Positions 18,495 to 54,860 of a stretch of DNA of 64,000 nucleotides are shown here, piece by piece (position 1 is the stretch's first letter; the number at the start of each line of letters is the position of its first letter). Made by a program: the position numbers and the translations under genes. Origin of the DNA: Patescibacteria group bacterium. GTDB taxonomy: Bacteria; Patescibacteriota; Microgenomatia; Levybacterales; UBA12049. The stretch covers positions 905,226 through 969,225 of the forward strand of contig BPJB01000001.1 in the NCBI GenBank assembly GCA_026004395.1. Direction: 5' to 3'. Under the pieces are notes generated by a model. That model made no database searches and was not told where the DNA came from. It saw only the letters and a program-made list of their open reading frames with translations.

Positions 18495-18578
18495 TAATAT
18501 GCGGGAATAAACAGCGAAAGATCGTATCAATATTTCTCGCCTTAGCAAACTAGGTCATTTGAAATAAAAACTGATAAA

Positions 18579-20525: not shown

Positions 20526-20565
20526 TAAGTTTTGATTATGCGACTAAGATAAAGACTTTACTAAG

Positions 20566-21819: not shown

Positions 21820-21825
21820 AATTAT

Positions 21826-26171: not shown

Positions 26172-26266
26172 CCTTGTTACACTATACTATTGCTTCAGGA
26201 CTTTAAACTCTTCTGATGTTAAGAAGAGAGTGGAGCCAAAAATAAAACAAATGTAATTAGGCAATT

Positions 26267-27019: not shown

Positions 27020-27033
27020 GAAAGGCAATTAAA

Positions 27034-28131: not shown

Positions 28132-28285
28132 TTAAAATCTTTCTTGCAAACTAAGATCAATATTTGCAACCTTAGCTAGAACAAAAACTCTCAATTTTTA
28201 AAAACTCTACTTTCTGCTGCTATATTTTTTACATGCAGTCAAAGGCTAACAAATTATAAAAATCAATATCAAATAGAATATTGCC

Positions 28286-28315
28286 AAGTATACCTGTATA
28301 CCTGTATACCTGTAT
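28286..28315. repeat. family-1 repeat variant (CAAGTATACCTGTATACCTGTATACCTGTATA; TATACCTG x3)
   Basis: Between module 2 and module 3. Confidence 0.7.
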
Positions 28316-28446
28316 AATGATTTAAAAATTGGATCTCAAACATTTTGCTTATTCAATGACCAAACTACTCTTTTATTTATTTTAACTATTGACAAGTTAA
28401 AAAATTTGTCTTCATACTAATAATACTCAATGATAAATACTCAAAG

Positions 28447-29925: not shown

Positions 29926-29935
29926 AAGGAGCATT

Positions 29936-38885: not shown

Positions 38886-39070
38886 GATATACTTCTGGTA
38901 GTGATGACACAAACAGAGGAATATGGTCCAATGGCCAATACGCGATGTCGGTATTTACACAAATGGTGTTAATAGAATTTTAGTCAAAAGGAGATTCTGG
39001 CAACGTCGGCATCGGGACAACAACACCCCTTGGCAAACTCAATGTTGATGGTGCTGCCACCGGCAAAGCA

Positions 39071-42000
39071 TTGGTCATCCTCAATGAAACTGGTGATCAG
39101 GCCATACTCACTGCCAGTAAGTCAGGATCAACCAAGTTCCTCATTGACAACAACGGCAATGTTGGCATTGGCACCACTACTATCACCCCAGGCTTCACCT
39201 TCGACAATATCGGACGCGGCAGATTCTCAACAGGTCTATCAATCGGCACAACTGCCACCACCAACACACTCGAACTCTCAGGTACTCTCAACCAAACCTC
39301 AGGTCAAGTAACCTTCGGTGGAAACGTAGATGCTACATCAGGTCTTGACGTCACAGGTGCCTCCCTCACCGTTGGAGGATCAGCCTTCACAGTCACCACC
39401 GCTGGAGTCATAACTGGTACATCCCAAACACTCACCTCAACAGGCAACGCCCTCACACTCTCTGGTGCTGGTGCCAATATATCCTTCAGCGGTGCTGGTC
39501 TTGCCCAAATCACAACAGCTGCCTCCCAACACCTCGCCCTCATGCCAGGCGGCAACGTGGGTATTGGGACGACAACACCCCAAATGAAACTCGATGTAGC
39601 AGGAGCAATAGGAATATCAGGCACAACTGTCATTGATGCATCAAGAAACCTAACCAACATCGCAGGAGTATCAACACACCTTAACCCAACAACTGCCAAC
39701 ACCTACAACCTAGGAACAGGAACTGGCAATCAATACCTCAACCTCTACGCACAAAACATCTACCAAAATGGTATAGCAGTCTGTGACGCCAATGGCAACA
39801 ACTGCCCAACAGGTGGCAACGCTGGACCATGGACAGAAACAGCAGGCATTGTCTACCTAGACACCACCTCCAACAAAGTCTCAATAGGTGACACAACAAC
39901 AGAACACAAACTAGAAGTAGAAGGAGCAATCACCGGCAAAGCACTAGTCTCCCTCTGGGAAAAAGGTGATCAGGACATCTTAGTAGCCTCCAACTCTGCT
40001 ACCCCCACCAACGTCTTCAGAATTACCAATAACGGCTCAATTATCAGCAATGGCACTATTACCGCATCAACCACTAATACCATCAATAGTCTATCCATCA
40101 ACAATGCATCCATCACCAACGCAGTTAATCTAACAGCATCAGGAACAATCACCTTCTCAGGATTAACTCCCAACAGATTAGTCACCACTGATCCCTCATC
40201 CAATCTCACCACCTCCATCTCCTCAGCCAACGTCGCTGCATCAGTAACTGACGAAACAGGAACTGGCAATCTAGTCTTTAACACCTCACCCTCATTCACA
40301 ACCAGCATCACAACAGGATCAACCTCCTTCTCCCTCCTCAATACAACAGCAACTACCATCAACGCCTTCGGTGCAGCAACAACACTGAATATAGGAGCAA
40401 ACTCCGGAACCTTAACACTTGGCAATCCAACTGTTGTTGGCACTCAAACAACTCAAAATCTCTGGAATACCACTGCCACAACCATCAACTTTGCAGGAGC
40501 AGCAACTACTTTGAATATGGGAGCCTCTTCTGGAACAACAACCATCAACAATGCCACTCTCTCTCTACCTAATGCCACCTCAGTCAATATCGCAGGAGCA
40601 TCAGCTATCATCAACCTCTCCTCCTCAACTGGTGCCAAACAAATACAAACAGGTGGAACTACCAACTTAGCCCTCATGCCAGGCGGCAACGTCGGCATCG
40701 GGACGACGAATCCGGGGGCTAAACTTGAAGTTAACGGAACTAGTGATATTGTTCAACTGAAGGTAAAACCAAATGGAAGTCAAACAGCTAATCTTATCGA
40801 AGTTGGAACAGGTAACTTAACCTTTGCCATAAATGGATCCAATAATGTCGCTGTCTCTACTCTTCCTTCAACTGATACCTTCCTAAGAGTCGGTTCTACA
40901 GGATATATCTCATTTAACTCATCTTCTGCTGTCTATGGTATTACTACCACTCCTGTTAACTTTGGTTCAGGAAACGTAGTTGGTATCAGCGCAGGTCCTG
41001 TTACAAATAACTCAGGCGCTGTTTCTGCAATAACAAGTATCTATGGAAGTGTGCGCACAGCGGGTGGAGTATCCAATATTGTAGCAGCAGGAAAAATTTT
41101 TGAAGCTGGTTCCCCTACGATTTCATCAGGTGGTATTACTACTCTTACAGGACTTTATATCAATCAACAAAAAGTAAGTGGTGTGACAACTGGTTATGGT
41201 ATCTATCAAGTATCCTCTGCAGACCTGAATTACTTCGCTGGCAACGTCGGCATCGGGACGACAGCACCAGTCCACAAACTAGAACTAGCTACCCATACAA
41301 CAGCAGCTGGTGGTATAGGTTTTGGCACTGATGTAGAACTCTACAGAGGAGCTGCTAACACACTCTACCTTGCCTCTGGTGACTCTCTCAACTTAGTATC
41401 CGGCAATCTACAAGTTGCTGGTACAACAGTTATCACCAGTGGTAGGATCATCCAGGCTGCCAATGGATCTGCTGCCTCACCCTCATTCACCTTCGCCTCC
41501 GACACCAACACAGGCATATTTGGAACTGGCGCTGATGTACTTGCTCTCTCAACTGCTGGAGTAGAGAGACTAAGAGTTGATGCCAGCGGCAATGTGGGTA
41601 TAAACACCACCTCACCCTCCTATAAACTAGACGTCCAAGGTGGATCAGGCATAGTAGCTCAGTTTAGTGGCAGAGTCATAGGCGCTGATGCTATCAACAC
41701 CAATGAGTTCGTAACTCTAGGTCAACTCCAAGGAGGCAGTGGATCCCTCTGGCTTGATGGTGGAGATTATCTATATCCTAACTCCTCCTTTGCCACCAAT
41801 GTCATGGTACCATCAGGAAGACTAGGTATAGGTCTAACATCTACTCCTTTCAAATTAGAAATCAATGGCAATGATCCCGGCAAAGCCCTAGTCTCCCTCA
41901 ACTACACTGGCACTGATCAAAACATCTTAGTTGCCTCTCAATCTGGAAATCTAAAGTTTGCTGTAGGATACAATGGCAATATCACATCAGCAACTGGTAC

Positions 42001-45000
42001 CCAATGGCTTCCCACCTCAGATTCAACCACTGCTTTGAATATTGCCAATGCTGCAGGAACTTCATTCGTCACCTTTGACAGTACTAATCAACGTGTTGGA
42101 ATTGGGACTACAGCACCAACTACCAAGTTAGAACTAGGCAGTGGTCAATTAGCAGTACCACTAGGATCAGCTACAACTCCATCCTACACCTTCAGCGGAG
42201 ATCTCAATACCGGAATCTGGTCATCAGGAGCAGACACTCTCAACTTCTCCACAGGAGGATCTGAAAGAATAAGAATTATCAGCAACGGCAACGTCGGCAT
42301 CGGGACGACGGGACCTACGGCAAAACTACAAATTGAAGGCTCTGGGGCAAATATATTCCTTAGCAACACGACCTCAAAGTATATCACTTTTGGAGCAGCC
42401 GGCTTTGCTCCTCCTGCTATAGATAGTGCCGGAACCAAATTAATCCTTTACGGTAGTGCCAATAATAATACTAATAACCCAAGATATGCGATGGGGATTG
42501 CACCATCAGAATTGTGGTATTCAAGTGGAGGTGTGCATAGGTGGTATACAGAAAGCGCAGGAACATGGACACCAAGGATGACAATAGATACCTCCGGCAA
42601 CGTCGGCATCGGGACGACAGCTCCTCTTGAAAAACTAGATGTATCAGGAAATGCAACAGTCTCTGGCAATCTCACCTTCTCTGGAGCAAGAACAATCGCC
42701 TCAAGAGCATTCACTCAACTAACCATTGGTGATACCCAAACTGGAAATATCCTTTTCTCACCAGCATCTGGAAAACAAATAATGTTCTTCTCCTCATCCA
42801 ACTACATAGACTCCTCTGGAAACCTTGTTCTCGCTGGCACAACAGGCATCACAGCATCAGGAACAGGTGCTGGTCTTAATTTCTCAGGCACTGGAACCCA
42901 TATCATCCAAGCAAGCGCTGGCACTCTCCAAATCAACGCCTTCACTCTAGGAGGAGCCATAACAGGCAACAACCAAAACATCTCCAGCATCGGCAACATC
43001 ACAGCCAATACCAGTGCCAATACCATAACAGGATTTGGTACTATTGGAACATCAGGTACTACAGCATTCCAAGGTATAACAGCAACACTCAATGGTACTG
43101 GCAACGCTCTCACCCTCTCTGGTGCTGGCGCCAACATCGCCTTTACTGGTGCTGGTCTTGCACAGATCACAACAGCTGCCTCCCAACACCTCGCCCTCAT
43201 GCCAGGCGGCAACGTCGGTATAAACACCACCTCACCCTCCTACAAACTAGACGTCCAAGGTGGATCAGGCATAGTAGCTCAGTTTAGTGGCAGAGTCATA
43301 GGCGCTGATGCTATCAACACCAATGAGTTCGTAACTCTAGGTCAACTCCAAGGAGGCAGTGGATCCCTCTGGCTTGATGGTGGAGACTATCTCTACCCCA
43401 ACTCCTCCTTTGCCACCAATGTCATGGTACCATCAGGAAGACTAGGTGTTGGTCTCTCCTCCACTCCCTTCAAACTGGAAATAACAGGTGCTGATGCTGG
43501 CAAAGCTCTAGCTTCCTTCAACTACACAGGCACTGATCAGAACATCCTTGTTGCTTCACAATCTGGCACACTCAAATTTGCTGTTGGATACAATGGCAAC
43601 ATCACCTCTGCAACAGGTACCAAATGGCTACCTACCTCAGACTCAACCACTGCTTTGAATATAGCCAACTCCTCTGGTACCTCCTTCGTCACCTTTGACA
43701 CTACCAATCAGAGAGTTGGAATTGGGACGACGGCACCTGGAGCAACATTAGACGTATCTGGGACTGATACTTTATTGCAAGATATAAGGTTTGTAGAAGC
43801 AAGCGGAATTAACTATATCCAAAGTACTAACAATAGAGGAGCAAACACATGGCAACCTCTCCACATTGGTGCTGGTTACAGTGGAAGCGATATTAAATTA
43901 GCAATAGACTCTACAGGCAACGTCGGCATCGGGACAACGGGACCGGGACAAAGATTAGATGTACAAGCTTCTGGAACAAATGATGATAGTATAAGACTCA
44001 CCACTGGAAATGCAGATGGTGGTTTACGCTTGAAAAATACTGGCACCGGCGGAGTTGAGTGGTTTATTGATTCTACATCAGGCTCAAGTGGTTACGGACA
44101 AGGAAAACTTGCGTTCGTACCAAATGTTGGGAGCACTCCAACAATGACATTAAGTGGCAGCAACGTAGGTATAAGCACCACAGCTCCAGGGGCATTACTG
44201 GATGTTAGAGGCAACGTTAGATTTCTTTCACAGACCAATAATTATTATCGTACATTTTTTGAAGCTACTACTGAAGGCGGATGGAATTTTCCGTCAATGA
44301 TAGTAGGACAACAAAGAGGAATTGTTATAAAAGATCGATCTGGACTAAGCGGAGGATTATGGCTAAATGGAGGAGATTATAATGCCATTGGTTCAAGAGG
44401 CGGAATAGGAGTTGGTTTAGTTACTGATCTTGGAACATATTTTGCATTAACCTCTTCATCTTCATTCATTAGATTTCACGATGGACAAATTATATTTTAT
44501 GGTAATACAGGATTAACCCCAGGATCAACGTTTTCGCCAACAGAACGTATACGTATTGATGCAACCGGCAACGTCGGCATCGGGACGACGAATCCAACAG
44601 AAAAATTAGAAGTAGTCGGAGATGTGAGGCTTAGGTCTGATAGTGATGTAAATACAAGTGTAGGATCTGGAGTATTGCAAATTTTAAACTCTGGGGGCAC
44701 AGCTGGTATTCATCTTGATGCTAACGAAATCCAAGCTATAGGAAATGATCTCCATATCAACAATGATAATCAAGTTAATACACATATTAACAACTTAGTT
44801 CACATAACTACAGGCGGCAACGTCGGCATCGGGACGACGGGTCCGGTAGCGAAGTTGGATGTGGCAGGATTAATAAAAGGTTCAAGTGGTTTTAGCTCCG
44901 ATGGTACAGCGAAAGTATTAACATACAGGTTGTCGAATTCAACCACAAATAGTGGCGATAGGTATATTGGAAGATTTACCGGCTCTCAATCTAACAGAAT

Positions 45001-47911
45001 AAAAATTACTATCATTGGTCAGGACGGATATAGTGGCTCTTCGCTTGGTAGAGAAACGGTAATTTATGGACAGTTTAATAATAATAATGATTTAGAGGGT
45101 CAATGGTACAACCTTGGTGGTTCAAATGGGGGAGCAATAACAGATGTTAAAGTGGAAGATATGGGTGCCAATGATTTCAAAATATACATTACTCATGGAC
45201 AATATTTTGAAGCAGTAGTAACAGTTGAAATAAGCGGTGGAACATTTACACCAGCTGACTCTCTTACTTCACCAACTGCTTACACTTCGCTTACAAAGCA
45301 ATTTATAGTCTTAGCAAATACTGGTATTGGATATGAAAATCCAGGTACGGCGAAATTGGCAATAAATGGCAACGTCGGCATCGGGACGACGAATCCTTCT
45401 TACAAACTTGATGTTCAAGGAGGATCTGGAATTGTTGCTCAGTTCTCAGGAAGAGTCATAGGCGCTGATGCTGTCAACACCAATGAGTTTGTTACTCTAG
45501 GTCAACTCCAAGGTGGCAGTGGATCCCTCTGGCTTGATGGTGGAGACTATCTCTACCCCAACTCCTCCTTTGCCACCAATGTCATGGTACCATCAGGAAG
45601 ACTAGGTATAGGTCTAACATCTACTCCTTTCAAATTAGAGATCAGTGGCAATGATCCCGGCAAAGCCCTAGTCTCCCTCAACTACACTGGCACTGATCAA
45701 AACATCTTAGTTGCCTCTCAATCTGGAAATCTAAAGTTTGCTGTAGGATACAATGGCAATATCACATCAGCAACTGGTACCCAATGGCTTCCCACCTCAG
45801 ACTCAACCACTGCTTTGAATATTGCCAATGCTGCAGGAACTTCATTCGTCACCTTTGACAGTACTAATCAACGTGTTGGTATTGGGACTACAGCACCAAC
45901 TACCAAGTTAGAACTAGGCAGTGGTCAATTAGCAGTACCACTAGGATCAGCTACAACTCCATCCTACACCTTCAGCGGAGATCTCAATACCGGAATCTGG
46001 TCATCAGGAGCAGACACTCTCAACTTCTCCACAGGAGGATCTGAAAGAATAAGAATTATCAGCAACGGCAACGTCGGCATCGGGACGACAGCACCAGTCC
46101 ACAAACTAGAACTAGCTACCCATACAACAGCAGCTGGTGGTATAGGTTTTGGCACTGATGTAGAACTCTACAGAGGAGCTGCTAACACACTCTACCTTGC
46201 CTCTGGTGACTCTCTCAACTTAGTATCCGGCAATCTACAAGTTGCTGGTACAACAGTTATCACCAGTGGTAGGATCATCCAGGCTGCCAATGGATCTGCT
46301 GCCTCACCCTCATTCACCTTCGCCTCCGACACCAACACAGGCATATTTGGAACTGGCGCTGATGTACTTGCCATCTCAACTGCTGGAGTAGAGAGACTAA
46401 GAGTTGATGCCAGCGGCAATGTGGGTATAAACACCACCTCACCCTCCTATAAACTAGACGTCCAAGGTGGATCAGGCATAGTAGCTCAGTTTAGTGGCAG
46501 AGTCATAGGCGCTGATGCTATCAACACCAATGAGTTCGTAACTCTAGGTCAACTCCAAGGAGGCAGTGGATCCCTCTGGCTTGATGGTGGAGACTATCTC
46601 TACCCCAACTCCTCCTTTGCCACCAATGTCATGGTACCATCAGGAAGACTAGGTATAGGTCTAACATCTACTCCTTTCAAATTAGAAATCAATGGCAATG
46701 ATCCCGGCAAAGCCCTAGTCTCCCTCAACTACACTGGCACTGATCAAAACATCTTAGTTGCCTCTCAATCTGGAAATCTAAAGTTTGCTGTAGGATACAA
46801 TGGCAATATCACATCAGCAACTGGTACCCAATGGCTTCCCACCTCAGATTCAACCACTGCTTTGAATATTGCCAATGCTGCAGGAACTTCATTCGTCACC
46901 TTTGACAGTACTAATCAACGTGTTGGAATTGGGACTACAGCACCAACTACCAAGTTAGAACTAGGCAGTGGTCAATTAGCAGTACCACTAGGATCAGCTA
47001 CAACTCCATCCTACACCTTCAGCGGAGATCTCAATACCGGAATCTGGTCATCAGGAGCAGACACTCTCAACTTCTCCACAGGAGGATCTGAAAGAATAAG
47101 AATTATCAGCAACGGCAACGTCGGCATCGGGACGACGAATCCAGGGGCGAAACTAGAAATTTCAAATGGAACAATTGGTATACAAGTTGCTCCAGGACTA
47201 TATTGGAATGGTAGTTCTATGGTTTCAGATAATAACTGGGTTAATTTTGATATTCCAGGCACTAAAAACGTTAACTTTTCAGATAATTTTATAGTAACCG
47301 GTGGCAACGTCGGCATCGGGACGACGAGTCCTGAAGCCAAACTTAATGTCCAAGGTGGAAGTATAAGAGTTGGATCCTCTTCAGGAAATTATGAAGAGAT
47401 TACGGGTGGCGATATTGGTATAAGACATCGCTGGGTAAACGATCCTGCAGACAACTATAGATTTTGGCTAGCAGCTAACGCAGGTATTGCCCTCGGGCTT
47501 ACTGGTAATGACGGTGGCGCCCTACGACTTGCAGATAGCGGAGCAAATACAGTGACTTTCTATGTCAAACAAAGTGGTATAGGAATTCTAAGAGCTAGTA
47601 GCAATGATGTCCTTGCTTTTACCTCTTCCGGCAACGTCGGCATCGGGACAACAGTACCAGCGTATAAATTGGATGTTGTTGGAGAGATTAGGGCATTTGG
47701 TAGTGGAGATACAAGATACAGAGTATATTCTAGTGGGACTACTGGTTGGGTAGGTTACGAATTAAGATCAAGCGGTTTAGATGCATTTGCTGGTGGTATA
47801 TTTAGAAACAATGCTGATAATAACAGAGTATCTATTTGGTCTAAAAATCAAGAAGCAATAAGTATTTTAGATTCCGGCAACGTCGGCATCGGGACGACGG
47901 GACCGGGGTAG
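39071..47911 (+). CDS. giant fibre protein 2 (at least 2946 aa) built from tail-fibre-like repeats; the frame is open from 38984, has no ATG, and uses a TTG at 39071
   Basis: About 20 repeats containing GNVGIGTT(A/S/G/N)P..KL(D/E)V, long Gly/Thr/Ala/Ser-rich beta-strand-type sequence. The reading frame continues upstream of the annotated start to a TAG at 38981-38983, which suggests former continuity with ORF 1. Confidence 0.75.
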   Translation: MVILNETGDQAILTASKSGSTKFLIDNNGNVGIGTTTITPGFTFDNIGRGRFSTGLSIGTTATTNTLELSGTLNQTSGQVTFGGNVDATSGLDVTGASLTVGGSAFTVTTAGVITGTSQTLTSTGNALTLSGAGANISFSGAGLAQITTAASQHLALMPGGNVGIGTTTPQMKLDVAGAIGISGTTVIDASRNLTNIAGVSTHLNPTTANTYNLGTGTGNQYLNLYAQNIYQNGIAVCDANGNNCPTGGNAGPWTETAGIVYLDTTSNKVSIGDTTTEHKLEVEGAITGKALVSLWEKGDQDILVASNSATPTNVFRITNNGSIISNGTITASTTNTINSLSINNASITNAVNLTASGTITFSGLTPNRLVTTDPSSNLTTSISSANVAASVTDETGTGNLVFNTSPSFTTSITTGSTSFSLLNTTATTINAFGAATTLNIGANSGTLTLGNPTVVGTQTTQNLWNTTATTINFAGAATTLNMGASSGTTTINNATLSLPNATSVNIAGASAIINLSSSTGAKQIQTGGTTNLALMPGGNVGIGTTNPGAKLEVNGTSDIVQLKVKPNGSQTANLIEVGTGNLTFAINGSNNVAVSTLPSTDTFLRVGSTGYISFNSSSAVYGITTTPVNFGSGNVVGISAGPVTNNSGAVSAITSIYGSVRTAGGVSNIVAAGKIFEAGSPTISSGGITTLTGLYINQQKVSGVTTGYGIYQVSSADLNYFAGNVGIGTTAPVHKLELATHTTAAGGIGFGTDVELYRGAANTLYLASGDSLNLVSGNLQVAGTTVITSGRIIQAANGSAASPSFTFASDTNTGIFGTGADVLALSTAGVERLRVDASGNVGINTTSPSYKLDVQGGSGIVAQFSGRVIGADAINTNEFVTLGQLQGGSGSLWLDGGDYLYPNSSFATNVMVPSGRLGIGLTSTPFKLEINGNDPGKALVSLNYTGTDQNILVASQSGNLKFAVGYNGNITSATGTQWLPTSDSTTALNIANAAGTSFVTFDSTNQRVGIGTTAPTTKLELGSGQLAVPLGSATTPSYTFSGDLNTGIWSSGADTLNFSTGGSERIRIISNGNVGIGTTGPTAKLQIEGSGANIFLSNTTSKYITFGAAGFAPPAIDSAGTKLILYGSANNNTNNPRYAMGIAPSELWYSSGGVHRWYTESAGTWTPRMTIDTSGNVGIGTTAPLEKLDVSGNATVSGNLTFSGARTIASRAFTQLTIGDTQTGNILFSPASGKQIMFFSSSNYIDSSGNLVLAGTTGITASGTGAGLNFSGTGTHIIQASAGTLQINAFTLGGAITGNNQNISSIGNITANTSANTITGFGTIGTSGTTAFQGITATLNGTGNALTLSGAGANIAFTGAGLAQITTAASQHLALMPGGNVGINTTSPSYKLDVQGGSGIVAQFSGRVIGADAINTNEFVTLGQLQGGSGSLWLDGGDYLYPNSSFATNVMVPSGRLGVGLSSTPFKLEITGADAGKALASFNYTGTDQNILVASQSGTLKFAVGYNGNITSATGTKWLPTSDSTTALNIANSSGTSFVTFDTTNQRVGIGTTAPGATLDVSGTDTLLQDIRFVEASGINYIQSTNNRGANTWQPLHIGAGYSGSDIKLAIDSTGNVGIGTTGPGQRLDVQASGTNDDSIRLTTGNADGGLRLKNTGTGGVEWFIDSTSGSSGYGQGKLAFVPNVGSTPTMTLSGSNVGISTTAPGALLDVRGNVRFLSQTNNYYRTFFEATTEGGWNFPSMIVGQQRGIVIKDRSGLSGGLWLNGGDYNAIGSRGGIGVGLVTDLGTYFALTSSSSFIRFHDGQIIFYGNTGLTPGSTFSPTERIRIDATGNVGIGTTNPTEKLEVVGDVRLRSDSDVNTSVGSGVLQILNSGGTAGIHLDANEIQAIGNDLHINNDNQVNTHINNLVHITTGGNVGIGTTGPVAKLDVAGLIKGSSGFSSDGTAKVLTYRLSNSTTNSGDRYIGRFTGSQSNRIKITIIGQDGYSGSSLGRETVIYGQFNNNNDLEGQWYNLGGSNGGAITDVKVEDMGANDFKIYITHGQYFEAVVTVEISGGTFTPADSLTSPTAYTSLTKQFIVLANTGIGYENPGTAKLAINGNVGIGTTNPSYKLDVQGGSGIVAQFSGRVIGADAVNTNEFVTLGQLQGGSGSLWLDGGDYLYPNSSFATNVMVPSGRLGIGLTSTPFKLEISGNDPGKALVSLNYTGTDQNILVASQSGNLKFAVGYNGNITSATGTQWLPTSDSTTALNIANAAGTSFVTFDSTNQRVGIGTTAPTTKLELGSGQLAVPLGSATTPSYTFSGDLNTGIWSSGADTLNFSTGGSERIRIISNGNVGIGTTAPVHKLELATHTTAAGGIGFGTDVELYRGAANTLYLASGDSLNLVSGNLQVAGTTVITSGRIIQAANGSAASPSFTFASDTNTGIFGTGADVLAISTAGVERLRVDASGNVGINTTSPSYKLDVQGGSGIVAQFSGRVIGADAINTNEFVTLGQLQGGSGSLWLDGGDYLYPNSSFATNVMVPSGRLGIGLTSTPFKLEINGNDPGKALVSLNYTGTDQNILVASQSGNLKFAVGYNGNITSATGTQWLPTSDSTTALNIANAAGTSFVTFDSTNQRVGIGTTAPTTKLELGSGQLAVPLGSATTPSYTFSGDLNTGIWSSGADTLNFSTGGSERIRIISNGNVGIGTTNPGAKLEISNGTIGIQVAPGLYWNGSSMVSDNNWVNFDIPGTKNVNFSDNFIVTGGNVGIGTTSPEAKLNVQGGSIRVGSSSGNYEEITGGDIGIRHRWVNDPADNYRFWLAANAGIALGLTGNDGGALRLADSGANTVTFYVKQSGIGILRASSNDVLAFTSSGNVGIGTTVPAYKLDVVGEIRAFGSGDTRYRVYSSGTTGWVGYELRSSGLDAFAGGIFRNNADNNRVSIWSKNQEAISILDSGNVGIGTTGPG
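41240..42310 (+). repeat. 1.07-kb direct repeat inside giant gene 2 (copy A; copy B at 46066-47137, about 99% identical)
   Basis: Read directly: both copies begin GGCAACGTCGGCATCGGGACGACAGCACCAGTCCACAAACTAGAACTAGCTACCCATACAACAGCAGCTGG and end ...AGAATAAGAATTATCAGCAACGGCAACGTCGGCATCGGGACGACG. Only a handful of synonymous differences, for example GATTATCTATATCCTAAC versus GACTATCTCTACCCCAAC. Confidence 0.85.
45364..46088 (+). repeat. third copy (about 700 bp) of the distal part of the 1.07-kb repeat
   Basis: 45430-46076 matches 41650-42300 and 46475-47125 almost exactly (..GTCATAGGCGCTGATGCT[G/A]TCAACACCAATGAGTT..). Confidence 0.8.
46066..47137 (+). repeat. 1.07-kb direct repeat inside giant gene 2 (copy B)
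   Basis: See copy A at 41240-42310. Confidence 0.85.
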
Positions 47912-48575
47912 AAACTTCATGTAATCGGAAACTACAACAGATAACTAATGATTTAGAAGCTATTGACCCCAGCAACCGTATTCTTTGTAGCATCAAATGA
48001 TACTCTATCAACTACATGGCTCATCGGTAAAAACTCCAGGAATCAATTAATACTTAAAGATAAAGATCCAAATACTACTCTTACTGGTCAACGGCAGGCA
48101 CAGTTGCACTTTCAAACACACAACGGCACTGATTGATGGAACTGAATATAATTTTGCAACAGCTGCATTAACTAGTACAAGCGACTACTGTTGTGATTGA
48201 AATTACTAATCCCAATGGCCTTAACGCAGTTTACTCAAATGCAGCATGGTTTACGAGTGTTTTCTTTAGGAACAATTATGCCACAGCTCTATAACAGTTG
48301 ACGCACGTTATGATGGACATCCAGGATCCTATCAAACAATTTGGTCAACAACAACAAACGATCAAAGAACATGGCTAAGTTCAGCTGTCACGACCACGCT
48401 CACGGGATGACAGTCCCAGAAAATCACATCGTTGGTGGATCACTTACCTTGGTACCAGCGCTGGAGTCCACTTAACTACGGATGGACTCCAAACAGTAGA
48501 ACGGCAACTATCTCAGTATGCTCTTGAACTAGGAACAACATTTTATCGGTCATCAACTTTCCTACTGGTAGCTGC
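47912..48575 (+). pseudogene. degenerate, stop-riddled remnant of fibre-repeat coding sequence between giant ORFs 2 and 3
   Basis: Directly after the TAG at 47909-47911 the sequence still encodes KLHVIGNYNR, the same KLHVIG motif that ends ORF 1. It then gives protein-like translation interrupted by many stops in all frames. Confidence 0.4.
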
Positions 48576-50147
48576 TTGATACTCCCTACAGCGGAACAGA
48601 ATCACCTCGCACTCATGCCAGGTGGCAACGTGGGTATAAACACCACCACTCCAGTCTATACCCTTGATGTTAATGGCACATTTAGATCCTCATCGACATC
48701 AAACGCTGTTTTCGGCAATGGTACAACAGGTGGAATCCAACTAGGAGATGGTACTATTACAAAAACTACAGGCAATCCCTTTACTATGAATAGTGGACTA
48801 ACACTTAGCCAAAATCTCGCAGTCAATGGCGGTTCAATCACCTCAACTGTTGATCTGACTCTCAATCCATCAGGCGGTCAAGTCTTCCTCGCTGATACTG
48901 ATACCCTAGCTATAGGAGGCCATGCAGGAGCTGCCTACAACGCAATATCCAACGCAGGTGGAACTCCATCCAACCCCAACGTCACATCAGACAACGATCT
49001 CTACATCCAAGGCGATCTGGACATCGGAGGCACACTATATGTCGGTGGATCTCAAATTGCCAATTACTGGCAGCGCAATGGCACAACTCTTGCCCCAACA
49101 ACTACTACAGACAGTGTCGTACTAGGAGGCAATACATCAACTGTTCACCAGTTTGAAGTTAATGGAGCAGTAACAGGCAAGGCTCTTGTTGCCCTCACTG
49201 AGACTGGTGATCAAAATATCATCACTGCCTCCTCTTCTGCTACAACAACTGTCTTCAATCTCTCACGCACAGGCGCAATCAGCGTTGCCGCAGGACAAGG
49301 ATTGGATACGATCTCAGCTGGAGCACTTAATATAGGTACCACCACCCAAACAGCACTTACTCTTGGACAATCAGGAGCAACAACAACTATTAATGGCTCA
49401 TCTCTAACTGTTGGTCCCACCTCATGGACAGCAACACCTACTATCTCAGGACTGATCACAGCCACAAGCGGACTCACTGCCAACGGAGCACTCACCGCTA
49501 ACAACGTCTTTACACTAGGAGACGGTGGTGACACAGGATCAATCAACACCTCAGACTGGGATATCTCAACCACAGGCGTTATGACTGGTATCTCAGGCAT
49601 AACAACAGATGGAGGATACACTCAGTCAGGTACTGCCATCAATACCTTCACCGGTGATCTATCTCTTGGAACAGGTGTACAGGTAGACTTCGCAGATGAA
49701 GTCGGTGACAAATTGTATCTTTTCTCCAATACATATGGAATAGGCATTGAATCCTCAACACTCACCAACTGGTCAGCAAGTACATTCCGCTGGAGAATAG
49801 GTGGCACATCTGTCTCAACTGGCACTGAATACATGACACTAACAAGCAGTGCTCTTAACCTTGCCAACAACACTCTGACCTCAACTGTGATCTCACCCTC
49901 AATCCCTCAGGAGGCCAAGTCTTCCTCGCTGATACGATACCCTAGCTATTGGAGGCCATGCAGGAGCTGCCTACAACGCAATATCCAACGCAGGTGGAAC
50001 TCCATCCAACCCCAACGTCACATCAGACAACGATCTCTACATCCAAGGCGATCTGGACATCGGAGGCACACTATATGTCGGTGGATCTCAAATTGCCAAT
50101 TACTGGCAGCGCATCGCTGGCAACCTCTCACCAATAAATCTCAATGA
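48576..50147 (+). CDS. fibre-protein fragment 3 (523 aa as called); the last ~85 codons are out-of-frame read-through of a duplicated segment
   Basis: Starts ...QNHLALMPGGNVGINTTTPVYTLDVNG, the motif seen in gene 2. The C-terminal Arg-rich tail (RYPSYWRPCRSCLQRNIQRRWNSIQPQRHIRQRS...) is the +1 frame of a copy of 48860-49077. Confidence 0.5.
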   Translation: MILPTAEQNHLALMPGGNVGINTTTPVYTLDVNGTFRSSSTSNAVFGNGTTGGIQLGDGTITKTTGNPFTMNSGLTLSQNLAVNGGSITSTVDLTLNPSGGQVFLADTDTLAIGGHAGAAYNAISNAGGTPSNPNVTSDNDLYIQGDLDIGGTLYVGGSQIANYWQRNGTTLAPTTTTDSVVLGGNTSTVHQFEVNGAVTGKALVALTETGDQNIITASSSATTTVFNLSRTGAISVAAGQGLDTISAGALNIGTTTQTALTLGQSGATTTINGSSLTVGPTSWTATPTISGLITATSGLTANGALTANNVFTLGDGGDTGSINTSDWDISTTGVMTGISGITTDGGYTQSGTAINTFTGDLSLGTGVQVDFADEVGDKLYLFSNTYGIGIESSTLTNWSASTFRWRIGGTSVSTGTEYMTLTSSALNLANNTLTSTVISPSIPQEAKSSSLIRYPSYWRPCRSCLQRNIQRRWNSIQPQRHIRQRSLHPRRSGHRRHTICRWISNCQLLAAHRWQPLTNKSQ

Positions 50148-50181
50148 CACAATCTCTGCTACTACATCAGCATCTACAGCA

Positions 50182-50715
50182 TTGACTATAACTCAAACTG
50201 GTGCATTTGATGTCGTCAGATTTGAAGATCAAGCATCAGATACAACACCATTCGTAATCGATCAAAATGGGAATGTCGGTATTGGTACCACAGCACCAGG
50301 GTACAAACTAGATGTAGCTGGAAGTGTCAATATTGGTAGTAATAGTCACTTATATTTTGCCGGAGGTAATCCTCATATTGAAAGTATATATGATGACTTT
50401 ATTTTCCAAGTTGATACTGACAATAATGCCACAGGTAGATTTTTCTTCAAAGACACAAATACCGATGTTATGACAATCGTCAATGGCAACGTGGGTATTG
50501 GTACAACTGCACCTACAGCCAAACTTGATATTACTGGTGATGCTTCCTCCTCCGGCTCTCTAGTACTTCGAGGTACTTCACCAACTACATTAGATATCTT
50601 AAATGGAGGAAGATTTGATATCCAAACCTCTGTAGGAGGAGATGCAGGACTTACTCCAAGATTGACAATCACCAGCAACGGCAATGTAGGCATCGGGACA
50701 ACGGGACCAGCTTGA
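50182..50715 (+). CDS. fibre-protein fragment 4 (177 aa; TTG start as called). Its frame extends upstream through the duplicated segment and downstream, via a 1-nt shift, into ORF 5
   Basis: Contains DQNGNVGIGTTAPGYKLDVAG and NGNVGIGTTAPTAKLDITG, and ends GNVGIGTTGPA*. The upstream in-frame sequence reads ...GGSQIANYWQRIAGNLSPINLNDTISATTSAS with no stop. Confidence 0.5.
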   Translation: MTITQTGAFDVVRFEDQASDTTPFVIDQNGNVGIGTTAPGYKLDVAGSVNIGSNSHLYFAGGNPHIESIYDDFIFQVDTDNNATGRFFFKDTNTDVMTIVNGNVGIGTTAPTAKLDITGDASSSGSLVLRGTSPTTLDILNGGRFDIQTSVGGDAGLTPRLTITSNGNVGIGTTGPA

Positions 50716-50899
50716 TCTTCTGGACGTAAATGGTGGCGTCATCATTCGCGATCGAGCTGCAATTCAAGGGACAGGCGCAAGCTGTAGCGCTCCTGGTGCT
50801 GGAACTGCAGGCTGGTGGTATGCTGATGCAGGAGATTGTTCAACTGTCTTTGCCGGGATAAATACTGCTACCAACGGCTCTGAGGTCTTTGGAATATAC

Positions 50900-53800
50900 A
50901 TGGGCAGCTGGGACTGGACAATAGATATTAATGGCAATGTCACCAATGCTGGCAATCTCACAGTCCAGGGTACAACAGGTATAACTGCTTCTGGAACTGG
51001 TGCTGGTCTTAACTTCTCTGGCACAGGAACGCACACAATCCAAGCAAGCGCTGGAACTTTGCAAATCAACGCATTTACTCTGGGAGGAGCTATCACAGGC
51101 AACAACCAAAATATCTCCAGTATCGGCAACATCACAGCCAATACAAGTGCCAATACCATCACAGGATTTGGCACCATAGGAACATCAGGCACAACAGCAT
51201 TCCAAGGAATAACAGCTACCCTCAGTGGTACTGGCAACGCTCTCACCCTCTCTGGTGCTGGTGCCAACATCGCCTTCACTGGTGCAGGTCTAGCCCAAAT
51301 CACAACAGCCGCCTCCCAACACCTCGCCCTCATGCCAGGCGGCAACGTGGGTATAGGCACTACTACTCCAACACTGGGCAAACTCACAGTACTTGGCACA
51401 ACGGCAGCTCAAACATTTGCTGATTATGACAATACAGCCTACTTCTTGGATCCAGCAACAACAACTACCTCACTCAACATCGCAGGTGGTGCCAATATTG
51501 GTGGTTATGCAACAGTCTCTGCCTCTCTTGCTGTTGGCTACACCAACGCACCTGCTGGTCCTGGACATGCCATCTTCGCAGGCAACTTAGGCATAGGTAC
51601 TACAGCACCAGTCCACAAACTAGAACTAGCCTCCCACACAACAGCAACTGGTGGCATAGGATTTGGCACTGATGTAGAACTCTACAGATCTGCTGCTGAT
51701 ACCCTCTCCCTTGCATCAGGTGACTCCCTCAACCTAGTCTCTGGCAATCTACAGGTTGGTAGTACAACAGTTATCACCAGTGGTAGGATTATTCAAGCTA
51801 CCAATGGCAGTGCTACATCTCCCTCATTCACCTTCTCCTCTGACACCAACACTGGCATATTTGGAACAGGTGCTGATGTACTCGCTATCTCAACTGCTGG
51901 CACAGAGAGAGTACGAATTGCTGCCAATGGCAATGTAGGTATAGGGACAACAACAACTGATTTCCAAACCACTATTCAAGAAAGCACTAATAGTAAAGGT
52001 ATCTTAGCGCTTCTTGGCGATGGCAACCAAACATTATTCACTGCCTCAATCTCAGGATCAACTAAGTTCTTAGTTGATAAGACTGGTAACGTCGGCATCG
52101 GGACTATAGCACCTAGTACCCTTTTGCATGTTGCCATGGACAACGGCACCCTACCTACATTAAGCTCTAGTACAGGTTTTGTAATTAATAATAATAGTGC
52201 AACGACAGACGATGTAAGTTTGTCTCTGGTAGCAGGAACAGCGGCAATGGCATGGCTTAGAATGGGTGATAGCGCTGATGAAAGTGCAGGAGCTGTCATA
52301 TATGACAACTCAGAGGATAGTATGTCACTCAGAGTTAACTCTGGAACACGTATAAAGATTACAAGTACCGGAAAAATTTCTCTTGGTGCCAGCGGTGTTA
52401 CTGAGCTTGGAAGTTCTAACATTCCTGATGGATCAGTTATTCTTCCTAATGGAGCATTTTGTGTCGACGATGGTGCTCAAAACTGTGATGACGCAGCTCG
52501 CGTAGCTGGAAGAATTTATGCTGAGTCAACAACAATTACTGCGATAGACTTGGCAGAAAATTATCCATCTAAAGACTCTACTATGGAAGCTGGAGACCTA
52601 GTAGTTGCCGATCCGGACAATACAGAGTATGTGAAGAAATCAACTGGCGCGTACCAGCCGTCTCTTATAGGTGTCATCTCAACCAAACCTGGTATTCTCC
52701 TTGGAGGATTTGGCGAGGAGGCAAAGAGATTCCCAGATGACAAAAAATACCCAATAGCTCTTGCCGGAAGAATACCAGTAAAAGTTTCAACGATCAATGG
52801 ACCCATCAAACGAGGCGACTACCTCACCTCCTCTCCAATTCCAGGTGTGGCGATGAAAGCAACTAGAGCTGGACAAATAGTCGCAAAAGCACTTGAGGAT
52901 TATAACACTCCTGATACGAATACAGTTGGCAAAATAGTCGCATTGGTTAACGTCTCTTGGTACGACCCACAGGTCTATATTGCAGACTCAGGTGACTTGA
53001 ATATCACAAACAACGCTGGTGACTTTAAAGCATGGGTTGCCGGACAACCAGTTGAGAGAAAAGCAGCCTATGCAGATGCTGTTATTGCACGTCTTACAAC
53101 AGGTATTGTAAAGACCAAACAATTACTTGTTGAAGGCACTGCTACATTCCTTGGAAGTGTCCAGATGCAGACATTGAATGTAGCCAATACTCTTAAAGCA
53201 GCATCTATTGAGGTTGCCAATAATCTCCAGGCAGGCACGATCAATGCCACAACTATAGCGGTCAATAGCCTCTCCATTGCCGGTCAGAATCTGAGAGATT
53301 ATATACTTGCAGTTGTTGAACAAGCTGGATTCTCTAAGAATCAAAATAACATCACCTCACCCATAGCTGATATTGATAGAATCCATACCAGCGTCATATC
53401 ACCGCTTGCTTCTGACTCTGCAATCTTGGTAAACGGCAAACTTGTCATCAAGAGAGGTAACGAAGGATCTGATGATTCTTCGACTTCGTCTCAAAATAAC
53501 ATTGCACTAGAAGTTCAAGGTTCAGCCTCAATTAGTGGAAATCTATCAGTCAGTGATGCAAGTATTGCTGGTACTCTTCGCGCTGGTAAGATCATCGCTG
53601 ATCAGATAGAGGGACTCGATGCACGCATTGCAAGTCTTGCAGCCAACGCTATCACCGCAACCAACGCAGCTATTGCGACAAACTCTACTGCATCGGATTC
53701 AGGAATACTTGCATCAGGAAGTGCAACTCTTGCTTCTCTGATCTCATCTACAATCGTTAGTGACTATGCTTCTGTTGCTAGCTTCACAGCAAATCTAGCC

Positions 53801-54586
53801 TTTGTACCCAATCTTAATGCGCAATTTGGGACATTTGAACAAGGACTGATGGCATTTGGACCATCATCCCTTTCTGATGTCTCTATTGCGGGACAACTCT
53901 CAATCAATGGCTCTATGATCTTTGCTGATAATAGTATCAATACACTTGGCGCTGATCTTCAGATACAGCCACTCAGACAAGGCAATATCTCATTTATGGC
54001 AGGTCTTGTCACCATAGATATTGACGGGAATATATCTGTTGCAGGGAATGCTACATTTGCAAAGAATGTTCGAGTCAATGGAACACTTGCAGCAAAAGTT
54101 ATCTCACCTGTTCCAGATGAAGACCTGGTCTTCAAGCTTCCGGGTACATCCAATAGCACACAACTTGCTGTTGATAGACCAAGTATTGTTGTCCAGAACG
54201 CATCCGGTTCAGCAGTCCTGAAGATCACTGATGAGGGAGATATCATCGCATCAGGCGAGGCTAATTTCAAAAATATTGCCACCAATACATTCAAGATCGT
54301 CAGAGGCGCGCAAGCTGATACCTCCCTCACCCAAACTATTGCCACAGCAAGTGCCGGAACAGCAACAATCAAGGCGGGTCAATTCGAGCGCACAATTATC
54401 AGTCCATTTGTCTCTGAAAAATCACTGATTTATATCACACCTGTCACCAATACCAATGGAGTCACACCTTATATCGCTCGTCAGACAGCTGAAGATGCAG
54501 AAAATGGTATCAAAGGATCATTCACAATTCGTATCCCTGTACTACAGACATCAGATGTGAAAGTTAACTGGTGGATTATTAATTAA
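50900..54586 (+). CDS. giant fibre protein 5 (1228 aa): N-terminal fibre repeats homologous to gene 2 plus a distinct, non-repetitive C-terminal ~700-aa region
   Basis: aa 20-160 are near-identical to gene 2 residues encoded at 42840-43215 (GTTGITASGTGAGLNFSGTGTH.IQASAGTLQINAFTLGGAITGNNQNISSIGNITANTSANTITGFGTIGTSGTTAFQGITATL.GTGNALTLSGAGANIAFTGAGLAQITTAASQHLALMPGGNVGI). The C-terminal part (..IDLAENYPSKDSTMEAGDLVVADPDNTEYVKKS..PIALAGRIPVKVSTINGPIKRGDYLTSSPIPGVAMKATRAGQIVAKALE..) lacks the repeats. Confidence 0.7.
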   Translation: MGSWDWTIDINGNVTNAGNLTVQGTTGITASGTGAGLNFSGTGTHTIQASAGTLQINAFTLGGAITGNNQNISSIGNITANTSANTITGFGTIGTSGTTAFQGITATLSGTGNALTLSGAGANIAFTGAGLAQITTAASQHLALMPGGNVGIGTTTPTLGKLTVLGTTAAQTFADYDNTAYFLDPATTTTSLNIAGGANIGGYATVSASLAVGYTNAPAGPGHAIFAGNLGIGTTAPVHKLELASHTTATGGIGFGTDVELYRSAADTLSLASGDSLNLVSGNLQVGSTTVITSGRIIQATNGSATSPSFTFSSDTNTGIFGTGADVLAISTAGTERVRIAANGNVGIGTTTTDFQTTIQESTNSKGILALLGDGNQTLFTASISGSTKFLVDKTGNVGIGTIAPSTLLHVAMDNGTLPTLSSSTGFVINNNSATTDDVSLSLVAGTAAMAWLRMGDSADESAGAVIYDNSEDSMSLRVNSGTRIKITSTGKISLGASGVTELGSSNIPDGSVILPNGAFCVDDGAQNCDDAARVAGRIYAESTTITAIDLAENYPSKDSTMEAGDLVVADPDNTEYVKKSTGAYQPSLIGVISTKPGILLGGFGEEAKRFPDDKKYPIALAGRIPVKVSTINGPIKRGDYLTSSPIPGVAMKATRAGQIVAKALEDYNTPDTNTVGKIVALVNVSWYDPQVYIADSGDLNITNNAGDFKAWVAGQPVERKAAYADAVIARLTTGIVKTKQLLVEGTATFLGSVQMQTLNVANTLKAASIEVANNLQAGTINATTIAVNSLSIAGQNLRDYILAVVEQAGFSKNQNNITSPIADIDRIHTSVISPLASDSAILVNGKLVIKRGNEGSDDSSTSSQNNIALEVQGSASISGNLSVSDASIAGTLRAGKIIADQIEGLDARIASLAANAITATNAAIATNSTASDSGILASGSATLASLISSTIVSDYASVASFTANLAFVPNLNAQFGTFEQGLMAFGPSSLSDVSIAGQLSINGSMIFADNSINTLGADLQIQPLRQGNISFMAGLVTIDIDGNISVAGNATFAKNVRVNGTLAAKVISPVPDEDLVFKLPGTSNSTQLAVDRPSIVVQNASGSAVLKITDEGDIIASGEANFKNIATNTFKIVRGAQADTSLTQTIATASAGTATIKAGQFERTIISPFVSEKSLIYITPVTNTNGVTPYIARQTAEDAENGIKGSFTIRIPVLQTSDVKVNWWIIN

Positions 54587-54860
54587 CAAAAGATGGTTAG
54601 CATGTAAACTATCACCTGTTTTATCTTTTAAACTTGATAACTTTTATGAGTAGAGCAGAAATGCATTATTTTATTAACCTATCAAATATTATCAAAATAT
54701 CGCTTAATAGATACTAAAGTTCCCGTATATGTGTTTGATTGCAATAAATAGATTGTGGCTATATAAGCAAAAAGTAGGATTAAAGAAAATGTTTTGTGAA
54801 AATATTGGATACATTGTTAGATCTTCTATTTTAGAAATTATATTCTAGTAGATACTATTA

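What the first reader, a model, noticed from the sequence alone, without database searches (positions are those of the whole stretch)
48860..50112. About 220-bp segment duplicated 1 kb downstream, with a 1-nt slip in a GATAC-TGATAC micro-repeat that frameshifts ORF 3 and joins it to ORF 4
Seen directly: GGCCATGCAGGAGCTGCCTACAACGCAATATCCAACGCAGGTGGAACTCCATCCAACCCCAACGTCACATCAGACAACGATCTCTACATCCAAGGCGATCTGGACATCGGAGGCACACTATATGTCGGTGGATCTCAAATTGCCAATTACTGGCAGCGCA occurs at about 48918-49077 and again at about 49952-50112. About 60 bp of looser similarity lie upstream of each copy. In copy 1 the preceding sequence is GCTGATACTGATACCCTAGC. In copy 2 it is GCTGATACGATACCCTAGC, one T missing. That puts copy 2 out of frame with ORF 3, producing the Arg-rich tail, and in frame with ORF 4. 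The two small ORFs 48922..49125 and 49949..50137 in the track are the same alternate frame of the two copies. The pattern fits slipped-strand mutation at a short tandem repeat, either phase variation or decay.
Basis: seen in the sequence. Interest (0 to 1): 0.55.

Follow-up and report, generated by a model that had tools for sequence, protein, structure and literature searches.

The report
Repeated module in broken giant fibre gene
The duplicated 236-bp segment is a conserved building block of a giant tail-fibre-like surface protein gene of a tiny (CPR/Patescibacteria) bacterium, copied from one place in the gene to another, and the reading-frame break beside it comes from two single-base losses that are either assembly errors or a very recent gene death, not a genetic on/off switch.

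Summary
The repeat is real: 48840-49077 and 49878-50113 are 96.6% identical, with 163 nt exact. Copy 2 lacks two T's, not one: at 49888/49889 and at 49935/49936. Restoring either alone does not join ORF 3 to ORF 4; restoring both does.

The segment encodes a ~79-aa module (…LADTDTLAIGGHAGAAYNAISN…) of a giant tail-fibre-like protein gene (34305-54586) in a CPR bacterium. GATACTGATACC is simply the codons for a conserved Asp-Thr-Asp-Thr. Two relatives carry the homologous gene as one unbroken ORF (>5,545 and >3,600 aa).

The closest relative has a different, shorter module where copy 2 sits. Copy 2 is therefore a ~200-nt gene-conversion tract copied from copy 1. All six substitutions between the copies are synonymous.

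There is no simple-sequence tract, so slipped-strand phase variation is not supported.

The gene has other breaks. A 0.5-kb domain carries 12 small insertions and 1 deletion yet has a normal substitution pattern (omega 0.18), and there is a C insertion at 50711. Clustering, insertion bias and low dN/dS on both sides argue against ordinary decay. I put consensus errors in a strain-variable gene of a PacBio HiFi metagenome assembly at about 0.5 and very recent real inactivation at about 0.38. Interest is low.

The parts
34305..54586 (+). Giant tail-fibre-like / beta-strand-repeat surface protein gene (GNVGIGTTxP repeats), split here into five open stretches
   Evidence: ORF list and translations. 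PHROG tail-fibre hits. The homologous gene is a single ORF in L002 (>5,545 aa) and in L037 (open from the contig end to 10829), with the same C-terminus …VKVNWWIIN.
48840..49077 (+). Copy 1 of the module (…TSTVDLTLNPSGGQVFLADTDTLAIGGHAGAAYNAISNAGGTPSNPNVTSDNDLYIQGDLDIGGTLYVGGSQIANYWQR), in frame in ORF 3; donor of the tract
49878..50113 (+). Copy 2 of the module; 6 substitutions against copy 1, all synonymous third-position changes, plus 2 single-T gaps
   Evidence: P of all six being synonymous by chance about 2.4e-4
49915..50113 (+). Approximate gene-conversion tract: 1 difference from copy 1 in about 199 nt. L037 has a different, 22-aa shorter module variant here (…GVKIGTGTPNVVDLAGYDLYITGDLEVDGTIYDSAGNAITQYWKR)
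   Evidence: three-way comparison
49888..49889 (+). First missing T (gt[t]gatc); the module frame moves from frame 0 (ORF 3) to frame 2
   Evidence: L037 is also one base longer here; its aligner places the gap a few bases away.
49935..49936 (+). Second missing T (GATAC[T]GATACC, codons Asp-Thr-Asp-Thr); the frame moves from 2 to 1 (ORF 4 frame)
48576..50147 (+). 'ORF 3': genuine coding frame only to 49888; the last 86 codons are copy 2 read out of frame (Arg-rich tail)
   Evidence: dN/dS 0.05 against L037 for 49164-49880
49933..50715 (+). 'ORF 4' frame: open from 49933 (the listed start 50182 is only the first TTG); ends at a stop created by an extra C
50711..50711 (+). Single extra C (GTT to GCTT) relative to L037. 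It is the only indel in 4,113 aligned nt and separates ORF 4 from ORF 5
50690..54586 (+). 'ORF 5' frame with the unique C-terminal part of the fibre protein; 97.2% identical to L037, dN/dS 0.11
47909..48575 (+). Shredded unique domain: TAG at 47909 (TAT in L037), 12 small insertions (mostly single C, not in homopolymers) and 1 deletion within 47932-48397 relative to an intact ~230-aa domain in L037
38883..39070 (+). First break of the gene: TAA, a frame change, and TAG at 38981 inside module-like coding sequence

Best explanation
Shown:
- The repeated segment is a conserved ~79-aa structural module of a giant, modular, tail-fibre-like surface protein of a CPR/Patescibacteria bacterium.
- The gene is full of such modules, and two relatives encode it as one uninterrupted ORF.
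- Copy 2 arose when about 200 nt of copy 1 overwrote a diverged paralogous module 1 kb downstream. This is a non-reciprocal transfer, that is, intragenic gene conversion. The closest relative still has the other variant at that spot.
- The ORF 3 / ORF 4 split is caused by two independent-looking single-T gaps on either side of the 5' edge of that tract.

Inferred:
- These gaps, the C insertion at 50711 and the insertion-riddled domain at 47.9-48.6 kb are not a programmed mechanism.
- They are most likely consensus errors made where a long-read metagenome assembly collapsed strain variants of a hypervariable gene.
- The real gene is then one continuous, selected ORF of about 6,700 codons.
For: Module identity and frame:
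- The module occurs 3 times in frame in L002 and at least twice in L001. Only window copy 2 lacks a base at the two sites.
- All 6 substitutions between the copies are synonymous, including 5 lying between the two gaps (P about 2.4e-4).

Conversion:
- In L037 the gene is open throughout. It carries a different variant at the copy-2 position and has no ADTDT module in 12.4 kb.

Selection:
- dN/dS against L037 is 0.05 upstream and 0.11 downstream of the breaks.

Error signature:
- The 47932-48397 domain has 12 insertions and 1 deletion, mostly C and not in homopolymers. Its substitutions remain third-position biased (34 of 56, omega 0.18), and its dS of 0.38 equals that of the neighbouring intact gene at 0.40.
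- Indels cluster at 13 per 470 nt against 1 per 4,102 nt (Fisher p = 1.6e-12).
- Natural prokaryotic indels are deletion-biased (PMC2817411).

Provenance:
- The window is 100.000% identical over 22,763 nt to a contig built from DRR290133. That run is a PacBio HiFi hot-spring metagenome, originally assembled with metaFlye 2.8.3.
- That independent contig stops at about 36.2 kb, 1.1 kb before the first repeated 31-mer. This fits a strain branch at the start of the fibre region.
Against: - HiFi consensus is normally very accurate, and the flanking 22.7 kb shows no discrepancy at all.
- The two gaps are deletions of T outside long homopolymers, a different signature from the C insertions elsewhere.
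- About 8.8 kb of highly repetitive sequence (39071-47911) is open with no frameshift, so errors are not general to repeats.
- The gene also carries substitution-type stops: TAG at 47909 where L037 has TAT, and TAG at 38981. Indel-type consensus errors do not explain these.
- I could not see reads, and I do not know which assembler produced the window.
Confidence: 0.5

Rival explanations
1. Genuine, very recent inactivation. The giant fibre gene of this population is really broken. The two T deletions arose together with, or just after, the gene-conversion event, for example through error-prone repair synthesis at the tract edge. Only the N-terminal 1,526-aa product is still made.
For: - The lesions are absent from the intact orthologues L037 and L002.
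- Nonsense substitutions accompany the indels.
- The assembly is error-free where it can be checked.
- The two deletions sit within about 30 nt of the tract's 5' edge, as expected if a single repair event caused both.
- Recency would also explain the low dN/dS and the synonymous-only differences.
Against: - The indels are extremely clustered (p = 1.6e-12) and are 12:1 insertions in the shredded domain. This is opposite to the deletional bias of prokaryotic neutral DNA (PMC2817411).
- That domain shows no excess of substitutions (omega 0.18, dS equal to the neighbouring gene). Thirteen real indels without accompanying neutral substitutions is hard to obtain.
- More than 15 kb of downstream frames remain stop-free.
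Confidence: 0.38
2. Phase variation by slipped-strand mispairing at the GATAC-TGATAC micro-repeat: a reversible 1-nt change switches the ORF 3-4 fusion on and off.
For: The frameshift lies in a surface-protein gene, next to two adjacent GATAC pentamers.
Against: - There is no repeat tract: two imperfect hexamer units and no homopolymer.
- A 1-nt loss is not a unit change.
- A second deletion 47 nt upstream is also required.
- Three further break zones exist in the same gene.
- The motif is the conserved DTDT codons in all relatives.
Confidence: 0.04
3. Silent-cassette reservoir. The out-of-frame downstream pieces are real and are kept under selection, because their modules are copied by gene conversion into the expressed 5' gene. 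This would be adhesin or antigenic variation in the style of vls, MgPar or msp2.
For: - There is a demonstrable gene-conversion tract.
- Purifying selection acts on pieces that lie downstream of breaks.
- Many kb-scale near-identical repeats occur within the gene.
Against: - In both relatives the same pieces are colinear parts of one ORF.
- The observed conversion is between two downstream pieces, not into the 5' expressed part.
- No population data are available.
- The insertion-riddled domain looks technical rather than maintained.
Confidence: 0.05

Closest known systems
Tail-fibre-like 'beta strand repeat-containing' / 'tail fiber domain-containing' giant proteins of Patescibacteria and other uncultured lineages (PHROG tail-fibre families 9942, 18345, 28766)
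   Same: GNVGIGTTxP-type repeats, modular mosaic build and huge size. PHROG tail-fibre hits reach E 1.6e-12 to 4.6e-11. Homologues are named this way by NCBI.
   Different: No Pfam domain reaches threshold in ORFs 2-5. The C-terminal Peptidase_S74 chaperone domain (PF13884) seen in some homologues is not detected here. The N-terminus carries recombinase-type SAM-like domains.
Bdellovibrio mosaic adhesive trimer (MAT) chimeric fibre proteins (PMC10769870)
   Same: Fibre adhesins of a bacterium that lives on other bacteria, built by exchanging modules. There is a weak NCBIfam Bdello_MAT_N match in ORF 1 (aa 519-586, E 5e-6).
   Different: The score of 26 bits is below the 60-bit cut-off. This protein is about ten times larger. 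Trimer structure and host binding are untested.
Simple-sequence contingency loci (homopolymer or short tandem repeat phase variation in Neisseria, Haemophilus, Campylobacter; from my own knowledge)
   Same: A frameshift inside a surface-protein gene.
   Different: No hypermutable tract is present. The change is not a repeat-unit change. Two lesions are needed, and other breaks exist.
Intragenic gene conversion / concerted evolution of repeats in large bacterial adhesins (general knowledge)
   Same: A tract of near-identity with sharp edges between paralogous modules. The donor is in the same gene, and the orthologous site in a sister genome is unconverted.
   Different: Nothing unusual apart from the two single-base gaps at the tract edge.
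Indel consensus errors in long-read (meta)genome assemblies that split ORFs (general knowledge)
   Same: Isolated and clustered single-base indels that break an otherwise selected ORF, confined to a strain-variable region.
   Different: HiFi data normally give few such errors. The insertions here are not in homopolymers. Reads were not available to me.

Membership tests
SSR-mediated phase-variable (contingency) locus | A hypermutable tract: a homopolymer of about 7 or more, or at least 4-5 tandem copies of a short unit, at the frameshift site | tested here: not met
   Tandem Repeats Finder finds no array at 49888 or 49935. The contexts are ctgt|gatc and gatac|gatac.
SSR-mediated phase-variable (contingency) locus | The length change equals gain or loss of whole repeat units | tested here: not met
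   One T is lost, whereas the repeat unit GATACT/GATACC is 6 nt.
SSR-mediated phase-variable (contingency) locus | One reversible change restores the full ORF | tested here: not met
   Restoring either T alone gives a stop at codon 456, so both are needed. The gene also has breaks at 38883-39070, 47909-48575 and 50711.
SSR-mediated phase-variable (contingency) locus | Tract-length polymorphism among reads or strains | not testable with these tools
   No read data. No second assembly of this region was found.
Intragenic gene conversion tract | A block of near-identity between paralogous segments bounded by diverged flanks | tested here: met
   There is 1 difference in about 199 nt (49915-50113), and 163 nt are exact. 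The flanks are unalignable 3' and 86-90% identical 5'.
Intragenic gene conversion tract | The orthologous site in a close relative carries the unconverted sequence | tested here: met
   L037 has a different, 22-aa shorter variant between well-aligned flanks.
Bacterial pseudogene (neutral decay) | Inactivating lesions relative to intact orthologues | tested here: met
   L002 and L037 are open across all the sites they cover. The break at 38883-39070 has no directly comparable orthologous sequence.
Bacterial pseudogene (neutral decay) | Relaxed selection (dN/dS approaching 1) after inactivation | tested here: not met
   omega is 0.05, 0.11 and 0.18 in three segments, against 0.13 in the intact neighbouring gene. 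All 6 differences between the copies are synonymous.
Bacterial pseudogene (neutral decay) | Indels spread over the dead gene with a deletional bias | tested here: not met
   There are 12 insertions and 1 deletion. Density is 13 per 470 nt against 1 per 4,102 nt, p = 1.6e-12. The expected deletional bias is from PMC2817411.
Tail-fibre-like repeat protein | Sequence similarity to tail-fibre families | tested here: met
   PHROG 9942, 18345 and 28766 match at E 1.6e-12 to 4.6e-11.
Tail-fibre-like repeat protein | C-terminal intramolecular chaperone (Peptidase_S74, PF13884) | tested here: not met
   No Pfam hit in ORF 5. No PDB sequence match either.
Diversity-generating retroelement (TR/VR pair) | The two repeats differ at adenines of the template, with a reverse transcriptase nearby | tested here: not met
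   The differences are G>C, T>C, A>C, C>A, T>C and A>T, all synonymous. No RT domain appears among the ORFs scanned. Not every ORF of the window was scanned.
Silent-cassette antigenic variation (vls / MgPar / msp2 type) | One expression site plus promoterless partial copies that are not part of the expressed ORF | tested here: inconclusive
   The pieces are colinear parts of a single ORF in relatives. Population mosaics cannot be tested.

The most novel reading that the evidence does not exclude
The breaks are real and maintained. This epibiont-type bacterium would express only the 5' anchored part of the fibre gene. It would keep the downstream out-of-frame pieces under purifying selection as a module library, shuffled by gene conversion. 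The copy-2 tract would be one captured event, making this a cassette-style adhesin-variation system in CPR bacteria.
Probability: 0.05. Interest if true: 0.65.

Novelty: new member of a known kind. Interest (0 to 1): 0.15.

Why it matters
- If the breaks are assembly errors, this is a caution. Giant, strain-variable surface genes in long-read metagenome bins can be split into false ORFs, with out-of-frame 'Arg-rich tails' and spurious small ORFs.
- If the breaks are real, a host-attachment fibre of about 6,700 aa (about 2% of a ~1 Mb genome) has just been lost in one hot-spring population.
- Either way, the locus documents module exchange by gene conversion in a CPR fibre gene. It does not reveal a new mechanism.

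Tried and rejected
Searches that led nowhere:
- Exact-protein look-ups of ORF 5, the downstream 1,545-aa gene, and three guessed edge-truncated products of predicted 31-mer unitigs were all not on record. No second assembly of the frameshift region could be read.
- An exact-pattern scan of JGI metagenomes for either allele (with or without the T) gave 0 hits.
- A homologue search with the repaired ORF 3+4 found no near-identical protein.
- A search with L037's intact unique domain gave only GNVGIGTT-motif-level hits. Degenerate-codon patterns of that domain matched no other fetched locus, so the indels could not be polarised with an outgroup.
- Pfam and NCBIfam found nothing in ORFs 2-5. Pfam also found nothing in L037's unique domain. 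PDB sequence search and Rfam found nothing.

Readings considered and rejected:
- Tandem duplication of a 1,036-nt unit. The sequences after the two copies are different modules.
- A DGR TR/VR pair. The differences are not adenine-specific.
- Stop-codon recoding. TAA, TGA and TAG all terminate intact ORFs.
- Programmed -1 frameshifting. Neither site has a slippery heptamer (read directly).
- Promoter or terminator signals that would make ORFs 3-5 separate genes. Promoter-like sites are at shuffle level and no terminators were found.
- Uniform long-read error. 22.7 kb is identical to an independent contig.

Full report
**1. Observation**

The repeat finder and a global alignment confirm a direct repeat. 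Copy 1 is 48840-49077 and copy 2 is 49878-50113. They are 238 and 236 nt long, with 6 mismatches and 2 single-base gaps. A 163-nt exact run joins 48915-49077 to 49951-50113.

The 'looser' upstream part hides a second missing T at 49888/49889 (gt[t]gatc). ORF 3 (frame 0) leaves the module frame at that first gap. The 47 nt between the gaps are in frame 2. Everything after the second gap is in frame 1, which is ORF 4's frame.

- Restoring either T alone gives a stop at codon 456.
- Restoring both gives one open frame of 713 codons, ending at ORF 4's stop.

The two small ORFs and the Arg-rich tail are the other two frames of the same module.

**2. Context**

The window is a low-GC (36-38%) CPR/Patescibacteria-type genome. 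It carries LeuRS, ArgRS, ComEC and a weak CPR Pam-pilin match.

Positions 34305-54586 (GC 45-48%) form a giant repeat-protein gene with GNVGIGTTxP motifs. PHROG tail-fibre families match it. There is a weak Bdellovibrio MAT-fibre N-domain match. Homologues are annotated as 'beta strand repeat-containing' or 'tail fiber domain-containing' proteins.

The gene is interrupted at four places:
- 38883-39070
- 47909-48575
- 49888 and 49935
- 50711

It is full of internal repeats, up to 1,095 nt at 98.7% identity.

**3. Relatives**

L002 is a SPAdes MAG contig. It encodes the homologous gene as one ORF of more than 5,545 aa with the same C-terminus. It contains the …LADTDTL(A/S)IGG…AYxAxSNAGG…NPNVTADNDLYVQGDLDIGGTLY… module three times in frame.

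L001 is syntenic, with LeuRS upstream, and has the module at least twice.

An alignment of seven module copies shows third-codon-position variation. Only window copy 2 lacks a base at the two sites. GATACTGATACC is therefore the codons of a conserved Asp-Thr-Asp-Thr, not a mutable micro-repeat.

L037 (FWPU01008138.1) is the closest relative. Its gene is open from the contig end to the stop, more than 3,600 codons.
- Window 50485-54597 matches it at 97.2% with exactly one indel, an extra C in the window at 50711. That indel is the ORF 4/ORF 5 break.
- At the position of copy 2, L037 has a different module variant, 22 aa shorter, between well-aligned flanks. It has no ADTDT module anywhere in its 12.4 kb.

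Copy 2 is therefore a tract of about 200 nt (about 49915-50113) copied from copy 1 by gene conversion. The two T gaps lie about 27 nt outside and about 20 nt inside its 5' edge.

**4. Selection**

All six substitutions between copy 1 and repaired copy 2 are synonymous third-position changes, and five of them lie between the two gaps. The probability of that by chance is about 2.4e-4.

Codon comparison with L037:

| Segment | dS | dN/dS |
|---|---|---|
| ORF 3 middle (49164-49880) | 0.46 | 0.05 |
| End of ORF 4 plus ORF 5 (50485-54586) | 0.086 | 0.11 |
| Neighbouring intact gene (55262-55950) | 0.40 | 0.13 |

The sequence on both sides of, and across, the frameshifts has evolved as one translated frame.

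**5. Nature of the breaks**

The 'spacer' at 47912-48575 is not intergenic. It is homologous to an intact ~230-aa unique domain of L037.

Within 47932-48397 the window has 12 insertions and 1 deletion. The insertions are mostly single C's and not in homopolymers. The substitutions nevertheless remain third-position biased (34 of 56; omega 0.18). The dS of 0.38 equals that of the neighbouring gene.

The indel density is 13 per 470 nt, against 1 per 4,102 nt in ORF 5 (Fisher p = 1.6e-12). Neutral prokaryotic indels are deletion-biased (PMC2817411). They should also come with many unselected substitutions. This pattern is therefore hard to obtain by decay.

The window is 100.000% identical over 22,763 nt to a Logan contig of DRR290133. 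That run is a PacBio HiFi hot-spring metagenome, first assembled with metaFlye 2.8.3. metaFlye collapses strain variants (my own knowledge). The Logan contig ends at about 36.2 kb, 1.1 kb before the first repeated 31-mer in the window. That suggests a strain branch where the fibre region begins.

**6. Verdict on mechanism**

Phase variation by slippage is not supported. No tandem array or homopolymer is present, the change is not a repeat-unit change, two lesions are needed, and the gene has other breaks.

What is shown is a gene-conversion tract between modules of a giant fibre gene that is intact in relatives.

Whether the single-base breaks exist in the cells cannot be decided without reads. 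I weigh the options as follows:
- Consensus error, about 0.5. In favour: clustering, insertion bias, normal substitution pattern and strain-variable context.
- Genuine very recent inactivation, about 0.38. In favour: HiFi accuracy, perfect agreement in the unique flanks, accompanying nonsense substitutions, an 8.8-kb repetitive stretch without any frameshift, and both T deletions hugging the tract edge as a single error-prone repair event would produce.
- A cassette-type module library, about 0.05.
- Slippage-driven phase variation, about 0.04.

Recoding, programmed frameshifting, a DGR and a structured RNA were checked and rejected.

**7. Novelty and interest**

Intragenic repeat homogenisation, broken giant adhesin genes and long-read consensus indels are all known. 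This is a new example in a CPR fibre gene. Interest is low (0.15). The only reading that would raise it, a maintained out-of-frame module library, has little support.

Noticed in passing
window 34305-35800: The giant fibre protein starts with two or three tandem tyrosine-recombinase-type N-terminal SAM-like (core-binding) domains. Pfam PF02899 matches at E 5e-17, and the XerC/XerD N-terminal parts match in two stretches. There is no catalytic domain. A hydrophobic stretch follows (…YFHFAALIIFMSVIGFGLY…), then the extracellular repeats. This is an odd architecture for a surface fibre.
   Followed up: partly
window 47909-48575 vs L037 318-1070: A unique ~230-aa domain, intact in the sister contig, is shredded in the window. 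There are 12 small insertions (mostly single C, not in homopolymers), 1 deletion and a TAT-to-TAG change. Its substitutions still look selected (omega 0.18). This looks technical rather than biological.
   Followed up: yes
window 50485-54597 vs L037 6729-10840: The C-terminal 4.1 kb of the fibre gene is 97.2% identical between the two genomes (dS 0.086). Flanking sequence, including the next gene, is only 84-89% identical (dS about 0.4). The sharp edges lie at a module junction and at the stop codon. This suggests recent exchange of the fibre tip between lineages.
   Followed up: partly
window 50711: A single extra C (GTT to GCTT) is the only indel in 4,113 nt aligned to L037. It creates the ORF 4 stop and the ORF 4/ORF 5 split.
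   Followed up: yes
window 38883-39070: This is the first break of the giant gene. A TAA follows …EINRGGG, module-like coding sequence continues in another frame, and an in-frame TAG lies at 38981 before the 2,946-aa ORF. No sister sequence was available to polarise it.
   Followed up: partly
window 41240-42334 and 46067-47161: A 1,095-nt intragenic repeat at 98.7% identity (531 nt exact), plus several other 400-700-nt repeats at 84-97%. All lie inside the open 2,946-aa ORF.
   Followed up: no
window ~36200 (L036 contig end): The independent Logan contig of DRR290133 is identical to the window for 22.7 kb. It ends at about 36.2 kb, 1.1 kb before the first 31-mer repeated within the window. That is consistent with a strain-level branch at the start of the fibre's extracellular part.
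   Followed up: partly
L001 (ENA ERZ1286166 contig_5402) 5596-5964 and 9600-22226: The syntenic relative has a bAvd / 23S-rRNA-IVP four-helix-bundle gene next to its fibre gene. Its fibre gene is cut into at least 13 short same-strand ORFs. Upstream genes also look shortened, which suggests an error-prone long-read assembly. No bAvd or reverse transcriptase was seen in the window ORFs scanned.
   Followed up: no
window 55009-59646: A 1,545-aa protein with five Laminin_G_3 (concanavalin-like lectin) domains plus DUF2341 and PA14 lies directly downstream of the fibre gene. It is probably another surface or host-interaction protein.
   Followed up: no
window 60397-61041 (-): An IS200-like Y1 transposase (PF01797, E 8e-12) lies near the end of the surface-protein cluster.
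   Followed up: no
window 25494-30925: A run of five same-strand genes of unknown function sits between LeuRS and the fibre gene. One has a weak CPR Pam-pilin C-terminal match (33.5 bits, cut-off 55). Another has a weak WxL-interacting peptidoglycan-binding domain match.
   Followed up: no
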